From: an uncultured Candidatus Woesearchaeota archaeon
GTDB taxonomy: Archaea; Nanobdellota; Nanobdellia; UBA10117
Direction of reading: 5' to 3'
DNA length: 64,000 nt
NCBI GenBank assembly: GCA_903864915.1
Contig: CAIPHS010000004.1
Coordinates: 3,705 to 67,704 of the forward strand
Part shown: piece after piece, positions 4,896-8,834 of the stretch
Layout of the letters: each line of letters starts with the position of its first letter
Numbering within the stretch: the first letter of the stretch is position 1
Notes under the pieces: generated by a model
The model's database searches: none
What the model saw: only the letters and a program-made list of their open reading frames with translations
What the model was told of the DNA's origin: nothing
Made by a program: the position numbers and the translations under genes

Positions 4896-4956
4896 GCTTA
4901 CTAGAAGAACCGATAGTTTTTAGATATTTGTGAATTACAGAATAATGTAGTACCTA

Positions 4957-5415
4957 TCATAAATTTAATTCATACCATAACATTTCAAGATTTGGTGCTA
5001 ATTTCTCTTTCCGCACAAATACAAAATTATGAGATTTAAAGAATTCATTATTATCCATAAATTCAAAAGCATCAGCGCGTATCTTATTTATATCTTTAAA
5101 TTTACACTCTTCAATGAACCTATTCAATAGTTTTTCTTCCATGTCATGTTTTTTAGCATTTACATAATGAATCATTGCCGTACTATGATTTTCTTCATAA
5201 CCAACAATAAATCCCACCACATTATTTTTACTAATGGCTACAAAAGCAATCAGTTTGGGGTTTTCAAATTCTTTTAATATGCCATGCTCTTCTGCATGAG
5301 TTCTAAACTTATCAATCATGTCTTTTGGAAATCTGGGATTCGGATATTCTAAATCCGCTAACATTAATACTGATATCTCCTTTGCATGGTTTCTATTTGC
5401 ATTTATTATCTTCAT
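4957..5415 (-). CDS. GNAT-fold protein, degenerate; last gene of putative RiPP operon
   Basis: GNAT-like pattern (FVAISKNNVVGFIVG, FFKSHNF) but no RxxGxG/A motif A loop; overlaps the upstream radical SAM stop. Confidence 0.6.
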   Translation of the reverse strand: MKIINANRNHAKEISVLMLADLEYPNPRFPKDMIDKFRTHAEEHGILKEFENPKLIAFVAISKNNVVGFIVGYEENHSTAMIHYVNAKKHDMEEKLLNRFIEECKFKDINKIRADAFEFMDNNEFFKSHNFVFVRKEKLAPNLEMLWYELNL

Positions 5416-6331
5416 AACTATACCTCAATTGCGAAGCAGTTACCTTGCTTAACTCGCTAGATCCAAACATCTTCGTATATTCCTTCCAAGCAGATTCCCA
5501 AGCCCAAGAACAGTTTTCACTAACCATACACTCGGAACAATAATCTGGTTGAGCCACATCTAAATTTCCGAACTTAATGGTTTCTGGAGATACATAAATC
5601 ATTTCATGAGTCATATGCTTCCAATTTTTGCCTAAATATGGCCAATAAACTGGATCTATCGTACACGAAGGAATTATAAAAATGCCTAAATTTTTATCTC
5701 GTTTAATTGCTTCATCTAACGCATCTTCGATATGCATCTTCATATCTTTGTATCGTACAACAATTTCCTCGCGGTTGTCGCTCGCATCACCGCGCATTAT
5801 TAGGCCGTGAATTGAAACCCAAGCAGACGGAAAGGTATCATATGCGAAACGAACAAAGTCTGATAATTGCTGGTAGTTTTGTTTTAATACAATCGTCTTA
5901 ACTGATATGGGCATGCCTATTTCCTCTAGATTCTTCAGACCAGAAACCGTTTCTAAAAAACTACCTTTTCGTTTAGTAATGGAATCATGTATTTCTTCAT
6001 GATGACTATAAAACGCAGTCATGACCCTATCGACTCCCACTTCCTTTATTTTTTTGGCGAAAGATTTATCGTTGAATTTCCGGCCGTTTGAAAGCATAAT
6101 AAGAGATGTGTTAAAATTAGCCTTTATGTATGTGCAGATGTCGAATAAATCTTCCCGCAGTGTCGGCTCACCACCACTAAGCTCAATATAATCTTCTTCG
6201 GATGGGTGTATTAACTCAAGTTTTTCAATAATTTGATCAATGGATAAACTTCCTTTCTCGTCGGATTTCCTCGCGCAAGAAATGCATTCATTATTGCAAA
6301 CATAATCCGCAACAATAACTATTTTCCTCAT
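5393..6331 (-). CDS. Radical SAM enzyme, HxsC-like peptide maturase
   Basis: CxxxCxxC (CNNECISC), SGGEPT, LSNG, C-terminal IPSC...CSECMVSENC; start placed at ATG 6331 (ATGA overlap with the upstream stop, GGGAG SD). Confidence 0.85.
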   Translation of the reverse strand: MRKIVIVADYVCNNECISCARKSDEKGSLSIDQIIEKLELIHPSEEDYIELSGGEPTLREDLFDICTYIKANFNTSLIMLSNGRKFNDKSFAKKIKEVGVDRVMTAFYSHHEEIHDSITKRKGSFLETVSGLKNLEEIGMPISVKTIVLKQNYQQLSDFVRFAYDTFPSAWVSIHGLIMRGDASDNREEIVVRYKDMKMHIEDALDEAIKRDKNLGIFIIPSCTIDPVYWPYLGKNWKHMTHEMIYVSPETIKFGNLDVAQPDYCSECMVSENCSWAWESAWKEYTKMFGSSELSKVTASQLRYSYEDNKCK

Positions 6332-7236
6332 TTCAAACTCCCAAAACGGGGCGAAAAGTATAAGCAAATAGATTTTTTTGTTATATGCTCAGAAAAAGTT
6401 AAGCCAATATTGCTATAGTCTATCTCTCCACAAGCATCTAAAGTTTTTACAGTTTCATCAAAATCATCAAATCTTTCAGGCACACAAGTCCGTACTAACT
6501 GCTTAACTTCCTCACAAGAAACTTTTCGGCAGGCATCAGCACTAGCATCAAAAAATACCGAAAAACCAGACGTAGGACTTAAATTTCTAGAGTATTTTTT
6601 AGAAAAAGTCACATCTCTTATTTCACCATCAGAAAATAGTTTCTGGAAATGTTCCAAATGTTGCGAAGCAACACCATTTCTTTTCAAATAATCACCTATT
6701 CTTGAAAAATTAACCGTTGTATCTTTGGTGTATACTTTTAGATTTTGTGCCTTGTCTTTATAAAAATCCACAGCCATTAGATAACAGCTTTCAATTTCTT
6801 TTCCATCGAGGCTTGTCAAATCGATATCGACGAGCTCAGATAAATGCTTTACACTTTCAACGGGATTTTCTTTGAATTTGGGGTTGTCAGGCAACCGTAA
6901 AAAATAAACTTTAATTCTTGGATTATTATTGTTAAAATCAAAGCCCAATGCGAATTCAGGAACACTGTCTTTCGCTAAAGATAAGATTCTTTTTAAATTA
7001 GAACACTCACAGTCCATTTTCTCAAGTACGGATAAGATTCTTTGGGTATCGTACAATTTAAATAAACCAAATCTTAAGTCAAATTTAGCGTCAGGGTTAA
7101 CTAAAAGCGAAAATTCTATTTTGCTTTGTAAATTTTCATAGTCAGTATATAGTGAATCATAAATATCCAAAAAATTAGCAAAATCAAATTGATGGAATCG
7201 CCCAAAGTACTCTTCCAAGCACTTAAGCGAATCCAT
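6328..7236 (-). CDS. Putative LynF/TruF/PatF-like (ABBA-fold) peptide prenyltransferase
   Basis: 302 aa; repeated beta-hairpin motifs IEFS...DLRF, LGFDF...RIKVYF, MAVDFY...LKVY and terminal ICLYF match the order of the E, R, K and Y active-site residues of F-family prenyltransferases (recognised by eye). Confidence 0.65.
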   Translation of the reverse strand: MDSLKCLEEYFGRFHQFDFANFLDIYDSLYTDYENLQSKIEFSLLVNPDAKFDLRFGLFKLYDTQRILSVLEKMDCECSNLKRILSLAKDSVPEFALGFDFNNNNPRIKVYFLRLPDNPKFKENPVESVKHLSELVDIDLTSLDGKEIESCYLMAVDFYKDKAQNLKVYTKDTTVNFSRIGDYLKRNGVASQHLEHFQKLFSDGEIRDVTFSKKYSRNLSPTSGFSVFFDASADACRKVSCEEVKQLVRTCVPERFDDFDETVKTLDACGEIDYSNIGLTFSEHITKKSICLYFSPRFGSLK

Positions 7237-7243
7237 TTTTAAA

Positions 7244-7420
7244 TTAATACCAGCTTCCAGGGTCCATGCCTATGTTGTATTTTTGCATAGTTCCTTTCGG
7301 ATTGTCCGAATTTAAAGGCACATATTTGTTTAGTTTTGGAGAATATATTTGTGGTGTGGTGCCATTCCCCCCAGTTATCGGACCACTGCTTTCTTTTTCA
7401 ACAACCGTTTCTAAGCTCAT
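7244..7420 (-). CDS. 58-aa putative RiPP precursor peptide (MSLET...GMDPGSWY)
   Basis: ATG at 7420 with GGAGGT SD 7 nt upstream; first gene of the operon; rich in G, S, T, P and N with C-terminal W-Y. Confidence 0.65.
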   Translation of the reverse strand: MSLETVVEKESSGPITGGNGTTPQIYSPKLNKYVPLNSDNPKGTMQKYNIGMDPGSWY

Positions 7421-7569
7421 TTTTTTACCTCCCGAGGTTTGCAGTATCTTAACCGCAAATATTAAGTATGTGATAGGCATAAATAATTTTTGGTAGTTAT
7501 TTAGCTGAGGATTTTCAAAAGTTAGGCCTTTTTTCTCATTTTTGTTGTATTATGCGACGCAATAAAACC

Positions 7570-8448
7570 TTACTTGTATTTTCTGTAAGTTCTAAAAGTT
7601 GGACCGGTACCTTTCACCCCACCAGTAGCGGGCCCCATGGGTTTGAAAAATGGTTCTGTTGCAGGTTCCAGAAACCAATGCCAGACAATAAACATCGCTA
7701 CAGCAGCAATCAACGCAAAAATTATGCTAGTAAATAATCCGAGGTAAAACATCGCCACGCTTACAACCAAGGTGAATATGAAAACGAAAACCCACAGCGC
7801 CCTGTTGCCAAAGAGCACATAGTCGCCTTCCATGTGCGGAGTTTCAAATGGCTCTCCCGGCTTTATCCTTTCGTGACCTTTTTGCAAGGCCAATATCGGG
7901 AGCAGCGTCAGCAGAGGGAGGAGATTGAAAAGTGCCATGTATATGTTGATTATCATCAGTTTTGCACCTATTGGCCCGATGAGTTTTGCAAAAAGTGCGA
8001 GGCCCAGGTTTGCCATCGGTCCGGCCAGACCTATCATTGCCTGCTCTCTTGGCCCAAGGTGCGGGAAAGGCTTGCCAGGCTTGAACAAGCGCCACGGTCT
8101 GATAAGAACTGCCCAAAGCGCAGCAAAGATAATCCATCCGTTTGAAAGGAACATTAAAACTAGCATGGCGATGATGCCGCTGAGCCAGAGTTTTGATTTT
8201 ACCACACCTAAAAATTTTGAAGCAACAACTTTGTGCGCGGCTTCATGTACCAAAACAGATATTGCAACCAGAATCAAAACCAGGAAAAAATTTCCAAACC
8301 AGCTGCCCAAGCTTACAGTCTTTATAAGCTGGCAGCTTTTTGCGAGCCCAAGGCAGGTCTGGTACGAAAACCCGAAAGCGAGTATTAAAATTACGGGAAT
8401 CAAGTCTTTTAGCTCGTTAAGCTCAAAGATATTCTTCCACGCGGCCAT
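7570..8448 (-). CDS. Site-2 protease family (M50) intramembrane metalloprotease
   Basis: HEAAH in a hydrophobic helix, GPMANL, FNLLP, several TM segments. Confidence 0.8.
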   Translation of the reverse strand: MAAWKNIFELNELKDLIPVILILAFGFSYQTCLGLAKSCQLIKTVSLGSWFGNFFLVLILVAISVLVHEAAHKVVASKFLGVVKSKLWLSGIIAMLVLMFLSNGWIIFAALWAVLIRPWRLFKPGKPFPHLGPREQAMIGLAGPMANLGLALFAKLIGPIGAKLMIINIYMALFNLLPLLTLLPILALQKGHERIKPGEPFETPHMEGDYVLFGNRALWVFVFIFTLVVSVAMFYLGLFTSIIFALIAAVAMFIVWHWFLEPATEPFFKPMGPATGGVKGTGPTFRTYRKYK

Positions 8449-8552
8449 TATGGTAAATAATAAATGGTGCCTTAAATCTCTTTCCTAACCTGTTTGCTTT
8501 TGTAACGCAAGTTTTATATCTTTTACATTCGCCGTTATTGGAAGGTGAGCAC

Positions 8553-8834
8553 ATGCTAAAGATGAGAAAAATTTCGGAAGTAACTTCTCTAAAAGTGTAC
8601 ACAGACGACGGCCTGTATTTTGGCGAAATCGAAGAGGCGCTGCTAAGAAACAACAAAATTGAAAGCTGGAAAATACGCGCTTCACGCGAATCCTTTTTGT
8701 CCAAGGCACTAGCCGGAGCAAAAGGTGTAGTCGTGCCTCATGTACTAGTCAAGGCAATTGGCGATGTCATGTTGGTATCAAGAAACGCCGCACCAGCGTA
8801 CTCTGAAGAAGACCCCCAACAACCGAAAGCTTAA
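8553..8834 (+). CDS. PRC-barrel domain protein
   Basis: KVYTDDGLYFGEIEE...VVVPHVLVKAIGDVMLV pattern; GGTGA SD before ATG 8553. Confidence 0.8.
   Translation: MLKMRKISEVTSLKVYTDDGLYFGEIEEALLRNNKIESWKIRASRESFLSKALAGAKGVVVPHVLVKAIGDVMLVSRNAAPAYSEEDPQQPKA

What the first reader, a model, noticed from the sequence alone, without database searches (positions are those of the whole stretch)
7244..7420. Candidate precursor peptide ending in GMDPGSWY
Seen: 58 aa with an acidic N-terminus (MSLETVVEKE), a Gly/Thr/Pro-rich middle, four Tyr in total and C-terminal S-W-Y. The ORF-track start at 7480 lacks an SD, whereas 7420 has one. Inference: the terminal Trp and Tyr are natural targets for prenylation or radical-SAM aromatic cross-linking. 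A C-terminal prenylated Trp is reminiscent of ComX-type pheromones, which raises a role as a signal or a lipid-anchored host-interaction peptide.
Basis: partly seen in the sequence, partly recalled or inferred. Interest (0 to 1): 0.68.

Follow-up and report, generated by a model that had tools for sequence, protein, structure and literature searches.

The report
Conserved archaeal peptide ending in Trp-Tyr
The 58-residue reading frame is a real, conserved small gene that always sits beside one particular radical-SAM enzyme in tiny-genome (DPANN) archaea. It is most likely the peptide that this enzyme and its helper enzymes chemically modify, in a peptide family I found described nowhere.

Summary
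Window 7420..7244 (minus strand) encodes a 58-aa peptide with a GGAGGT Shine-Dalgarno 6 nt upstream.

It is a real gene. I found 32 distinct homologues (39-80 aa), and every one ends exactly at ...P-G-x-W-[Y/W]-stop. dN/dS is 0.09 over the C-terminal 34 codons, 0.19 over the first 11 and 0.69 in the linker.

An HxsC-like radical SAM enzyme with one auxiliary-cluster Cys set is present in every locus with enough DNA to judge. A DMATS-like ABBA prenyltransferase and a GNAT-like protein are frequent but optional. At least three loci lack the prenyltransferase and still keep the terminal Trp. One locus lacks the GNAT-like gene. Three protein clusters appear to be radical SAM-GNAT fusions (one verified).

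So the peptide is most likely the substrate of a radical-SAM-centred, RiPP-like cassette, with prenylation as an accessory step. The ComX analogy fails on enzyme fold and context. The acidic N-terminus is dispensable in short family members.

The cassette looks mobile: it has a GC dip here, different flanks elsewhere, and sits as one cassette of an integron-like array in a Woesearchaeote. No Pfam or NCBIfam family and no paper matches it.

The parts
7244..7420 (-). Peptide gene: 58 codons plus the stop at 7246-7244.
   Evidence: Homologues in 32 distinct sequences. dN/dS 0.20.
7427..7432 (-). Shine-Dalgarno GGAGGT, 6 nt before the ATG at 7420.
   Evidence: The equivalent GGAGG/GGGGG is present in most related loci.
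7388..7420 (-). Residues 1-11, MSLETVVEKES: an N-terminal box conserved in the close subfamily (MSLTQIVEKE) and absent from 39-47-aa members.
   Evidence: dN/dS 0.19.
7349..7387 (-). Residues 12-24: a linker variable in length and sequence.
   Evidence: dN/dS 0.69. pLDDT is below 50 for residues 7-19.
7313..7348 (-). Residues 25-36, IYSPKLNKYVPL. Family motif [VI]-[YFW]-S-x-K-[LV]-x-x-x-[VI]-x-[LIV]. Predicted beta-hairpin, proposed recognition box.
   Evidence: S27 is invariant and K29 is at least 90% conserved in 32 sequences. AF2 predicts strands 24-27 and 32-35 at pLDDT 70-75.
7247..7294 (-). Residues 43-58, GTMQKYNIGMDPGSWY. Family motif G-x-x-Q-x-x-N-[VI]-G-x-[GA]-P-G-x-W-[YW]-COOH. Proposed modified core.
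   Evidence: P54, G55 and W57 are invariant. Q46, N49, G51 and Y58 are at least 90% conserved. A stop always follows. dN/dS for residues 25-58 is 0.09.
6328..7236 (-). 302-aa DMATS-like ABBA prenyltransferase. Accessory partner, 7 nt after the peptide stop.
   Evidence: Pfam Trp_DMAT E 3e-4, below threshold. AF2 pLDDT 88.5. Foldseek: IptA 7w8u E 9e-11, 5-/6-DMATS and PriB with TMq 0.62-0.72, PagF TMq 0.49.
5393..6331 (-). 312-aa HxsC-like radical SAM enzyme, the constant partner. Has CX3CX2C plus four invariant auxiliary Cys.
   Evidence: TIGR03977 scores 154 bits against a cut-off of 268. Homologues are 56-75% identical. Invariant C12/C16/C19 and C223/C265/C268/C274.
4957..5415 (-). 152-aa GNAT-like protein. 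Frequent partner, fused to the radical SAM enzyme in some relatives.
   Evidence: Pfam Acetyltransf_10 is sub-threshold here and passes in the L011 orthologue. Fusion P0064. Alignment A6.
4900..7560 (.). Low-GC island containing the four genes.
   Evidence: GC 0.31-0.38 against 0.41-0.48 in both flanks.

Best explanation
The ORF encodes the substrate peptide of a small, horizontally mobile, radical-SAM-centred peptide-modification (RiPP-like) cassette of DPANN archaea.

Shown: it is a protein-coding gene under strong purifying selection, and its family is found only next to one subfamily of HxsC-like radical SAM enzymes. The peptide has two universally conserved parts. One is a short beta-hairpin box, [VI]-[YFW]-S-x-K-[LV] (residues 25-36). 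The other is a flexible Gly/Pro-rich tail, Q-x-x-N-[VI]-G-x-[GA]-P-G-x-W-[YW], that always ends the protein.

Inferred: the hairpin box is what the enzymes grip, playing the role of a leader. This would explain why the acidic N-terminus can be missing. The radical SAM enzyme, with its [4Fe-4S] site and one auxiliary-cluster Cys set, acts on the tail. Its most likely target is the terminal aromatic pair, either by a C-C, C-O or C-N cross-link or by MftC-like oxidative decarboxylation of the last residue. No Cys is conserved, so thioether chemistry is excluded. Where the compact DMATS-like prenyltransferase is present, as in this window, it then adds a prenyl group to the Trp57 indole, or less likely to the Tyr58 phenol. 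The GNAT-like protein works in complex with the radical SAM enzyme, either presenting the substrate or transferring an acyl group.

The product would be a hydrophobically tagged peptide, or a fragment cut from it, with an accessory role in cell-cell or host interaction or in conflict.
For: Real gene: the ORF is conserved in 13 of 14 loci fetched with the prenyltransferase. Third-position wobble is visible. dN/dS is 0.09 in the C-terminal 34 codons against 0.69 in the linker, and the Shine-Dalgarno motif is conserved.

Family: a profile search of 1.84 billion representatives gave 24 hits. Twenty-three are 39-80 aa proteins whose match ends at their last residue. Of 32 aligned sequences, S27, P54, G55 and W57 are invariant.

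Linkage: the radical SAM homologue is adjacent in every locus with enough DNA to judge. The flanks differ between loci, so the cassette is self-contained. A radical SAM-GNAT fusion exists, P0064. A prenyltransferase-less variant keeps the peptide intact.

Substrate-like nature: AF2 gives pLDDT 57.5, with only a hairpin at 70-75. The peptide has a strong Shine-Dalgarno motif, whereas the downstream enzyme gene follows after 7 nt.

Enzymes: ABBA fold closest to Trp-indole prenyltransferases; seven invariant Cys in the radical SAM enzyme.

Precedents: HxsC with its small partner HxsD matures a protein substrate (PMC13128918). MftC acts on the C-terminal Val-Tyr of MftA (PMC11350588).
Against: The cassette encodes no protease, transporter or RiPP recognition element (RRE). 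The whole C-terminal 34 residues are conserved, which also fits a small folded partner protein. The GNAT-like proteins lack a conserved Q/RxxGxG/A acetyl-CoA loop, so that step is uncertain. The genome shows no HMG-CoA reductase (it is 83% complete), so the source of the prenyl donor is unclear, although a polyprenyl synthase is present. Which residue is modified is pure inference. One related locus (L015) has an interrupted peptide frame.
Confidence: 0.68

Rival explanations
1. The peptide is only a scaffold. The radical SAM enzyme and the prenyltransferase build a small molecule from the terminal Trp-Tyr, which is then cut off, as in mycofactocin or PQQ biosynthesis. The small molecule could be a prenylated indole/tyramine-type compound or a redox cofactor.
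For: The aromatic pair is strictly C-terminal in 32/32 sequences. MftC decarboxylates and cross-links the C-terminal Val-Tyr of MftA (PMC11350588). The remainder of the peptide tolerates large length changes.
Against: No peptidase is conserved in the cassette; the M50-like neighbour occurs only in this window. The NCBIfam mycofactocin maturase model scores 47.8 bits against a cut-off of 265. The enzyme has one auxiliary Cys set rather than the two of MftC. Two members end in Trp, whereas MftC needs the phenol. The patchy distribution, 3 of 401 phylum genomes, argues against a core cofactor.
Confidence: 0.12
2. The small protein is not the substrate. It is a partner or chaperone subunit of the radical SAM enzyme, like HxsD, PqqD or MftB, and the true substrate is encoded elsewhere.
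For: HxsC needs the small protein HxsD as its core partner (PMC13128918). The conserved region is long (34 aa) and contains a predicted hairpin. No leader/core split is obvious in the shortest members.
Against: The peptide is predicted mostly disordered, pLDDT 57.5. The invariant residues are a Gly/Pro-rich tail ending in a free aromatic C-terminus, which is typical of a substrate and not of a wHTH-type chaperone. The GNAT-like protein already fills the partner role and is fused to the enzyme in some loci. No other candidate substrate is conserved nearby.
Confidence: 0.1
3. This is the first reader's functional reading: a ComX-like prenylated quorum-sensing pheromone.
For: A Trp lies next to the C-terminus and an adjacent prenyltransferase is present in this window.
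Against: The transferase has an ABBA/DMATS fold, not the ComQ/PalQ trans-IDS-like fold (PMC10853753; PMC13290415). No sensor kinase or regulator is conserved next to the cassette. The prenyltransferase is absent from at least three family loci. There is no export or processing gene.
Confidence: 0.05
4. It is a chance ORF or a mis-annotated leader of the prenyltransferase gene.
For: The ORF is short. The only hit among 5.8 billion called proteins was its own 78-aa call.
Against: dN/dS is 0.09-0.20, the Shine-Dalgarno motif and start are conserved, and there are 32 homologues. The absence of hits reflects uncalled small ORFs.
Confidence: 0.01

Closest known systems
HXS system (HxsA/B/C/D; TIGR03977 HxsC)
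   Same: HxsC is by far the best-scoring curated model for the constant partner enzyme: E 3.8e-45, against 5.5e-24 for the next model. In HXS, HxsC works with a small partner protein to mature a ribosomal product (PMC13128918). Here the enzyme is paired with, and in some relatives fused to, a small GNAT-like protein.
   Different: The score is below the equivalog cut-off, 154 against 268 bits. There is no second radical SAM enzyme (HxsB) and no HxsD. The peptide contains no His at all and no His-Xaa-Ser repeats. HXS is bacterial and its substrate is a larger protein with a peptidoglycan-binding domain.
Mycofactocin precursor MftA with MftC
   Same: Both involve a short peptide whose invariant business end is the extreme C-terminus finishing in Tyr, modified by a radical SAM enzyme with an auxiliary cluster that needs a small partner protein (PMC11350588).
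   Different: The MftC model scores far below its cut-off. There is no MftB RRE, MftD, MftE or MftF. The enzyme has one auxiliary Cys set. A Trp precedes the Tyr, and two members end in Trp-Trp.
Cyanobactin F-family peptide prenyltransferases (PagF and relatives) and their precursors
   Same: The transferase is a roughly 300-aa ABBA-barrel enzyme encoded next to a ribosomal peptide, about the size of PagF (296 aa).
   Different: Foldseek places it nearer to bacterial DMATS-type indole prenyltransferases (TMq 0.62-0.72) than to PagF (0.49). There are no PatA/PatG proteases, no macrocyclisation signals and no cyanobacterial context.
ComX/ComQ and PalX/PalQ (Trp-prenylated peptides)
   Same: A Trp sits at or next to the C-terminus of a small ribosomal peptide with a prenyltransferase gene beside it. 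PalQ strictly recognises the peptide terminus (PMC13290415).
   Different: ComQ and PalQ are trans-isoprenyl-diphosphate-synthase-like enzymes, whereas the enzyme here has an ABBA fold. Prenylation is optional in this family, and a radical SAM enzyme is the constant partner.
Radical-SAM cross-linked aromatic RiPPs (streptide, darobactin, triceptides/3-CyFE, WgkB tryglysin)
   Same: These are Cys-free peptides with conserved Trp/Tyr and a radical SAM enzyme carrying an auxiliary-cluster domain. The WgkB model is among the hits at 67 bits.
   Different: None of those models comes near its cut-off. The precursor motif and the C-terminal position differ. No cross-link was tested.

Membership tests
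RiPP precursor (general definition) | A small ribosomal peptide gene is conserved and co-located with genes for modifying enzymes. | tested here: met
   There are 32 homologues, always beside the HxsC-like radical SAM enzyme and mostly also beside the prenyltransferase and GNAT-like genes.
RiPP precursor (general definition) | The peptide is post-translationally modified by the neighbouring enzymes. | not testable with these tools
   This needs co-expression and mass spectrometry.
RiPP precursor (general definition) | Leader/core architecture with a recognition element (RRE) or a leader protease. | tested here: not met
   No RRE, protease or transporter lies in the cassette. The N-terminal region is dispensable in 39-47-aa members. 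A hairpin box may replace a leader; that is inference.
ComX/ComQ pheromone system | A ComQ-type (polyprenyl-synthase-like, PF00348) prenyltransferase lies next to the peptide. | tested here: not met
   The adjacent enzyme has an ABBA/DMATS fold. The only PF00348 gene of the genome is on another contig.
ComX/ComQ pheromone system | An adjacent ComP/ComA-type two-component sensor. | tested here: not met
   The flanks are hef and an M50-like gene here, and unrelated genes elsewhere.
HXS system | HxsA substrate with His-Xaa-Ser repeats. | tested here: not met
   The peptide has no His.
HXS system | HxsC equivalog score, plus HxsB and HxsD genes. | tested here: not met
   The score is 154 bits against a cut-off of 267.9. 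There is no second radical SAM enzyme and no TIGR03976 hit in the cassette.
Mycofactocin | MftC equivalog together with MftB, MftD, MftE and MftF. | tested here: not met
   TIGR03962 scores 47.8 bits against a cut-off of 265. None of the other genes is in the cassette.
Cyanobactin | PatA/PatG-type proteases, and an F-family prenyltransferase as the nearest fold. | tested here: not met
   No protease is present. DMATS-type enzymes rank above PagF.
Sactipeptide/ranthipeptide | Conserved Cys donor residues in the core. | tested here: not met
   No Cys is conserved in the 32 sequences.
DMATS/ABBA aromatic prenyltransferase (for the neighbour that motivated the reading) | [quoted passage not shown] | tested here: met
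   AF2 pLDDT 88.5 with alternating helix pairs and strand pairs. 120 PDB hits at E no higher than 1e-3, led by IptA, 5-/6-DMATS and PriB.
DMATS/ABBA aromatic prenyltransferase (for the neighbour that motivated the reading) | Pfam/NCBIfam family score above the cut-off. | tested here: not met
   PF11991 scores 20.7 against 25 bits. TIGR03429 scores 21 against 164 bits.

The most novel reading that the evidence does not exclude
A DPANN-specific mobile cassette makes a new class of modified peptide. A radical SAM enzyme related to the anti-phage maturase HxsC rewires a free C-terminal Trp-Tyr. In most members a DMATS-like enzyme then prenylates it, which would be the first archaeal peptide prenyltransferase. 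The resulting lipid-tagged effector would be used by an ultra-small symbiont against viruses or competitors, or to engage its host's membrane. The prenyl donor may be taken from the host, because no mevalonate-pathway reductase was found.
Probability: 0.22. Interest if true: 0.85.

Novelty: new variant of a known kind. Interest (0 to 1): 0.62.

Why it matters
DPANN archaea have genomes of about 0.5-1 Mb and are thought to carry little beyond essentials. A dedicated, mobile four-gene peptide-modification cassette in them is therefore unexpected.

The peptide family has a clean, testable signature: [VI][YFW]SxK...NxGx[GA]PGxW[YW]-COOH. It matches no Pfam or NCBIfam model, and I found no description of it in the searchable literature.

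It also offers a tractable substrate for the HxsC-like branch of radical SAM enzymes, whose chemistry is still unknown even in the recently described HXS defence system. It would extend peptide prenylation to a third enzyme lineage (DMATS-like) and to archaea. Natural variants with and without the prenyltransferase or the GNAT-like protein give a ready-made order-of-action experiment.

Tried and rejected
- Word-indexed search of 5.8 billion proteins with the peptide found only itself. This was uninformative, because most small ORFs are not called as genes.
- Pfam, NCBIfam and PADLOC scans of the peptide and of 14 family members gave no family.
- Searching 60 close relatives for the prenyltransferase found none. 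The cassette is not vertically inherited in this family.
- A PDB sequence profile search with the prenyltransferase gave nothing significant. The fold search was needed.
- The M50-like peptidase upstream was considered as a leader protease. I rejected it because it is not a neighbour in any other locus.
- The short stem-loop upstream of the peptide was considered as a recombination site. It occurs once per locus only and has a weak consensus fold of -0.38 kcal/mol, so I rejected it as an integron core.
- The integron-type core of L003 was searched for in this window and gave only chance-level matches.
- Weak peptide-profile hits in G068, G131 and G358 (E 2e-4 to 1e-2 per genome, among 401 genomes) lie inside larger unrelated proteins and were treated as chance.
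- L023's '205-aa' prenyltransferase is a gene-calling artefact. The open frame is 275 aa.

Full report
**1. The observation**

On the minus strand, 7420..7244 reads MSLETVVEKESSGPITGGNGTTPQIYSPKLNKYVPLNSDNPKGTMQKYNIGMDPGSWY followed by a stop.
- It is 58 aa with four Tyr and three Glu in the first ten residues.
- Residues 12-24 are rich in Gly, Thr and Pro.
- It ends in S-W-Y.
- GGAGGT lies at 7432-7427, six bases before the ATG. The in-frame ATG at 7480 has nothing comparable.

**2. Setting**

The genome is 650 kb in 13 contigs, a DPANN-type archaeon. Its neighbours in the window are Orc1/Cdc6, the PolD small subunit, Hef, archaeal Lon and SerRS.

Three genes follow the peptide on the same strand:
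- After a 7-nt gap, a 302-aa protein with a sub-threshold DMATS match.
- A radical SAM enzyme whose best curated model by a wide margin is HxsC: 154 bits, below the 268-bit equivalog cut-off.
- A 152-aa GNAT-like protein.

The four genes form a GC trough of 0.31-0.38, against 0.41-0.48 on both sides.

**3. Is the ORF a gene?**

Yes.
- Using the prenyltransferase as a handle (27 homologues; alignment A1), I fetched 14 loci from genome and metagenome collections. In 13 of them a 62-66-aa ORF ending in PG[SN]WY stands immediately upstream. The exception, L015, has the same C-terminal 22 codons but an interrupted frame.
- The DNA alignment shows the third-position wobble of a translated frame.
- Nei-Gojobori dN/dS over 11 loci is 0.20 overall. 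It is 0.19 for the first 11 codons, 0.69 for the linker and 0.09 for the last 34 codons.
- The homologues start at the equivalent MSL and carry GGAGG or GGGGG 6-9 nt upstream. This settles 7420 as the start.

**4. Extent of the family**

- A profile of 14 sequences (A4) searched against 1.84 billion representative proteins returned 24 hits. Twenty-three are 39-80 aa proteins whose match runs to their very last residue.
- With the loci, this gives 32 distinct sequences (A5).
- Invariant residues are S27, P54, G55 and W57. Residues K29, Q46, N49, G51 and Y58 are at least 90% conserved. The last residue is Tyr in 30 sequences and Trp in 2.
- Position 26 may be Y, F or W. Y33 and Y48 are not conserved in the wider family.
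- The shortest members (39-47 aa) begin only a few residues before the [VI][YFW]SxK box. The acidic N-terminus, and the MSLTQIVEKE box of the close subfamily, are therefore dispensable.
- AF2 with this alignment predicts a mostly disordered peptide (pLDDT 57.5). The one moderately confident element is a hairpin at residues 24-27 and 32-35.
- No Pfam, NCBIfam or PADLOC model matches the peptide.

**5. What travels with it**

- The order peptide, prenyltransferase, radical SAM, GNAT-like recurs in L002, L003, L009, L011, L022, L024 and the 197-kb contig carrying P0046. The flanking genes differ in each. The cassette is therefore self-contained, and the M50-like and hef genes of this window are not part of it.
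- The radical SAM enzyme is much better conserved (56-75% identity) than the prenyltransferase (31-50%).
- The variants are informative:
  - L018 has peptide, radical SAM and GNAT-like genes with only 48 nt between peptide and enzyme, and no prenyltransferase.
  - L027 (peptide ending GNWW, then GNAT-like, then radical SAM) and L029 (radical SAM, then peptide ending GDWW, then GNAT-like) also have no prenyltransferase next to these genes.
  - L030, from a high-GC organism, has the peptide, a divergent prenyltransferase (hhalign probability 97.5%) and the radical SAM enzyme, but no GNAT-like gene.
  - P0064 is a radical SAM-GNAT fusion. P0060 and P0061, at 456-457 aa, have the length expected of the same fusion, but I did not read their sequences.
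- The radical SAM enzyme is thus the only constant partner.
- It keeps CX3CX2C plus four further invariant Cys: C223 and CX2CX5C at 265-274. That is enough for one auxiliary cluster, as in peptide-modifying twitch/SPASM enzymes.

**6. The prenyltransferase**

- The AF2 model is confident (pLDDT 88.5, pTM 0.89) and shows the alternating helix-pair and strand-pair pattern of an ABBA barrel.
- Foldseek against the PDB puts the bacterial Trp-indole prenyltransferases IptA, 5-DMATS, 6-DMATS and PriB first (E 1e-10, TMq 0.62-0.72). PagF scores TMq 0.49.
- At about 300 aa it is 50-60 residues shorter than those DMATS enzymes and about the size of cyanobactin F enzymes, whose open barrel admits peptides (PMC13290415). 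That it takes a peptide substrate is inference.
- The genome has a polyprenyl synthase but no detectable HMG-CoA reductase (it is 83% complete), so the origin of the prenyl donor is open.

**7. The GNAT-like protein**

The L011 orthologue passes the Pfam GNAT threshold. Across 11 members, however, no Q/RxxGxG/A acetyl-CoA loop is conserved. Together with the fusions, this suggests a role as the radical SAM enzyme's partner. In the HXS system HxsD plays that role for HxsC: HxsC-HxsD is the core module and the chemistry, a +8 Da change, is still undefined (PMC13128918). This is inference.

**8. Mobility**

- The peptide profile hits only 3 of 401 genomes sampled across the phylum: G000, G291 and G097. 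The prenyltransferase is absent from 60 close relatives.
- In L003, a 100-kb Woesearchaeote contig, a roughly 40-nt core (..AACAGGnnnCCGATGTTAnnTGnAATT..) recurs at least nine times in intergenic positions. Copies bracket the cassette at 5581-5620 and 8527-8553. A perfect 17-bp inverted repeat lies at 5646-5662 and 8330-8346.
- No such cores flank the cassette in this window.

**9. Interpretation**

- Best reading (0.68): the ORF encodes the substrate of a radical-SAM-centred, RiPP-like cassette. The hairpin box serves as the recognition element, the Gly/Pro-rich tail with its free W-[Y/W] end is the modified core, prenylation of Trp57 (or Tyr58) is an accessory step, and the GNAT-like protein is the enzyme's partner.
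- No Cys is conserved, which excludes thioether chemistry.
- An MftC-like reaction on the last residue is attractive because of the strict terminal position (PMC11350588). But the MftC model scores far below its cut-off, only one auxiliary Cys set is present, and two members end in Trp.
- The rivals are a scaffold for an excised small molecule (0.12), a partner subunit rather than a substrate (0.10), a ComX-like pheromone (0.05) and a chance ORF (0.01).

**10. Comparison with known systems and novelty**

- The family fails the membership tests for ComX/ComQ (wrong transferase fold), cyanobactins (no proteases, and DMATS-like enzymes are nearer), mycofactocin and HXS (scores below cut-off, partner genes missing, no His) and sacti-/ranthipeptides (no Cys).
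- It works most like a radical SAM RiPP with a tailoring prenyltransferase.
- Searches of the paper library found no description of it: DPANN/RiPP/prenyltransferase; precursor peptide/radical SAM/ABBA/archaea; Woesearchaeota/radical SAM/precursor peptide. A 2026 review of peptide prenylation lists only CaaX, cyanobactin-F and trans-IDS-like enzymes. A survey of archaeal RiPPs mentions DPANN only in passing.
- I class it as a new variant of a known kind.

**11. Limits**

Nothing here shows translation, modification or function. Structure prediction of complexes was not available. Most related contigs are short, so counts of 'absent' partner genes rest on a handful of loci.

Noticed in passing
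L003:365-12139 (cores at about 365, 427, 1819, 2820, 5581, 8527, 9520, 10894, 11356, 12100); inverted repeat at L003:5646-5662 and 8330-8346: The Woesearchaeote contig carries at least nine copies of a roughly 40-nt intergenic core (AACAGGnnnCCGATGTTAnnTGnAATT). These delimit gene cassettes. The four-gene peptide cassette is one such cassette and is also bracketed by a perfect 17-bp inverted repeat.
   Followed up: partly
L025:2028-3389 (P0064, 453 aa); also P0060 and P0061: P0064 is a natural fusion of the HxsC-like radical SAM enzyme with the GNAT-like protein. This argues that the two act as one unit. P0060 and P0061 have the matching length but I did not read their sequences.
   Followed up: partly
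L018 (G097:C14:15762-18929), L027, L029: These cassette variants lack the prenyltransferase. The two most divergent peptides, in L027 and L029, end in Trp-Trp instead of Trp-Tyr.
   Followed up: partly
L030:206-2135: A high-GC organism, seen on 13 contigs in several samples, carries a 43-aa family member plus a divergent prenyltransferase and the radical SAM enzyme, with no GNAT-like gene. The family is therefore not confined to AT-rich DPANN genomes.
   Followed up: no
L008:405-418, L012:5177-5190, L004:973-986, L003:5746-5759; weak equivalent at window 7443-7464 (-): A short stem-loop (CAGTTGAAAAACTG, TCAGTCAAATGACTGA or TAGTTGGTAAACTA, with C-G to T-A swaps) lies between a TTTAAATA-like box and the Shine-Dalgarno motif of the peptide gene. 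It occurs once per locus and could be an operator or a 5'-UTR element.
   Followed up: partly
L015:1442-1616: The peptide reading frame is interrupted here; only the last 22 codons are in frame. This is either an assembly error or a decaying copy.
   Followed up: no
L004 (CAZDQI010000046.1, 3.8 kb): A contig with the archaeal-type cassette is binned as 'Candidatus Saccharibacteria'. It is probably mis-binned.
   Followed up: no
G000:C6:11022-11783; whole genome G000: The genome has a polyprenyl synthase (PF00348, 160 bits) but no HMG-CoA reductase hit. This is consistent with a DPANN cell that cannot make its own isoprenoid precursors. The genome is only 83% complete.
   Followed up: partly
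P0094 (541 aa, from the representative library); L019:1327-1752 (G068): Two larger proteins resemble the hairpin box of the peptide. P0094 carries seven repeats of [IV][YF]SERQGKxIxLQTP. The other is a secreted 141-aa protein with an FG-GAP-like segment (VYSKKTGMHVFLKTPNGEYQMFNVG). This is probably a generic beta-hairpin motif.
   Followed up: no
window 7570-8448 (-): A 292-aa polytopic protein with an HEAAH motif and a weak M50 peptidase match lies directly upstream. It is not linked to the cassette in other loci.
   Followed up: partly
L022:4875-5105; P0046 contig (80-aa gene after the GNAT-like gene): Two loci carry an extra 76-80-aa ORF directly after the GNAT-like gene. I did not compare the two ORFs with each other.
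   Followed up: no
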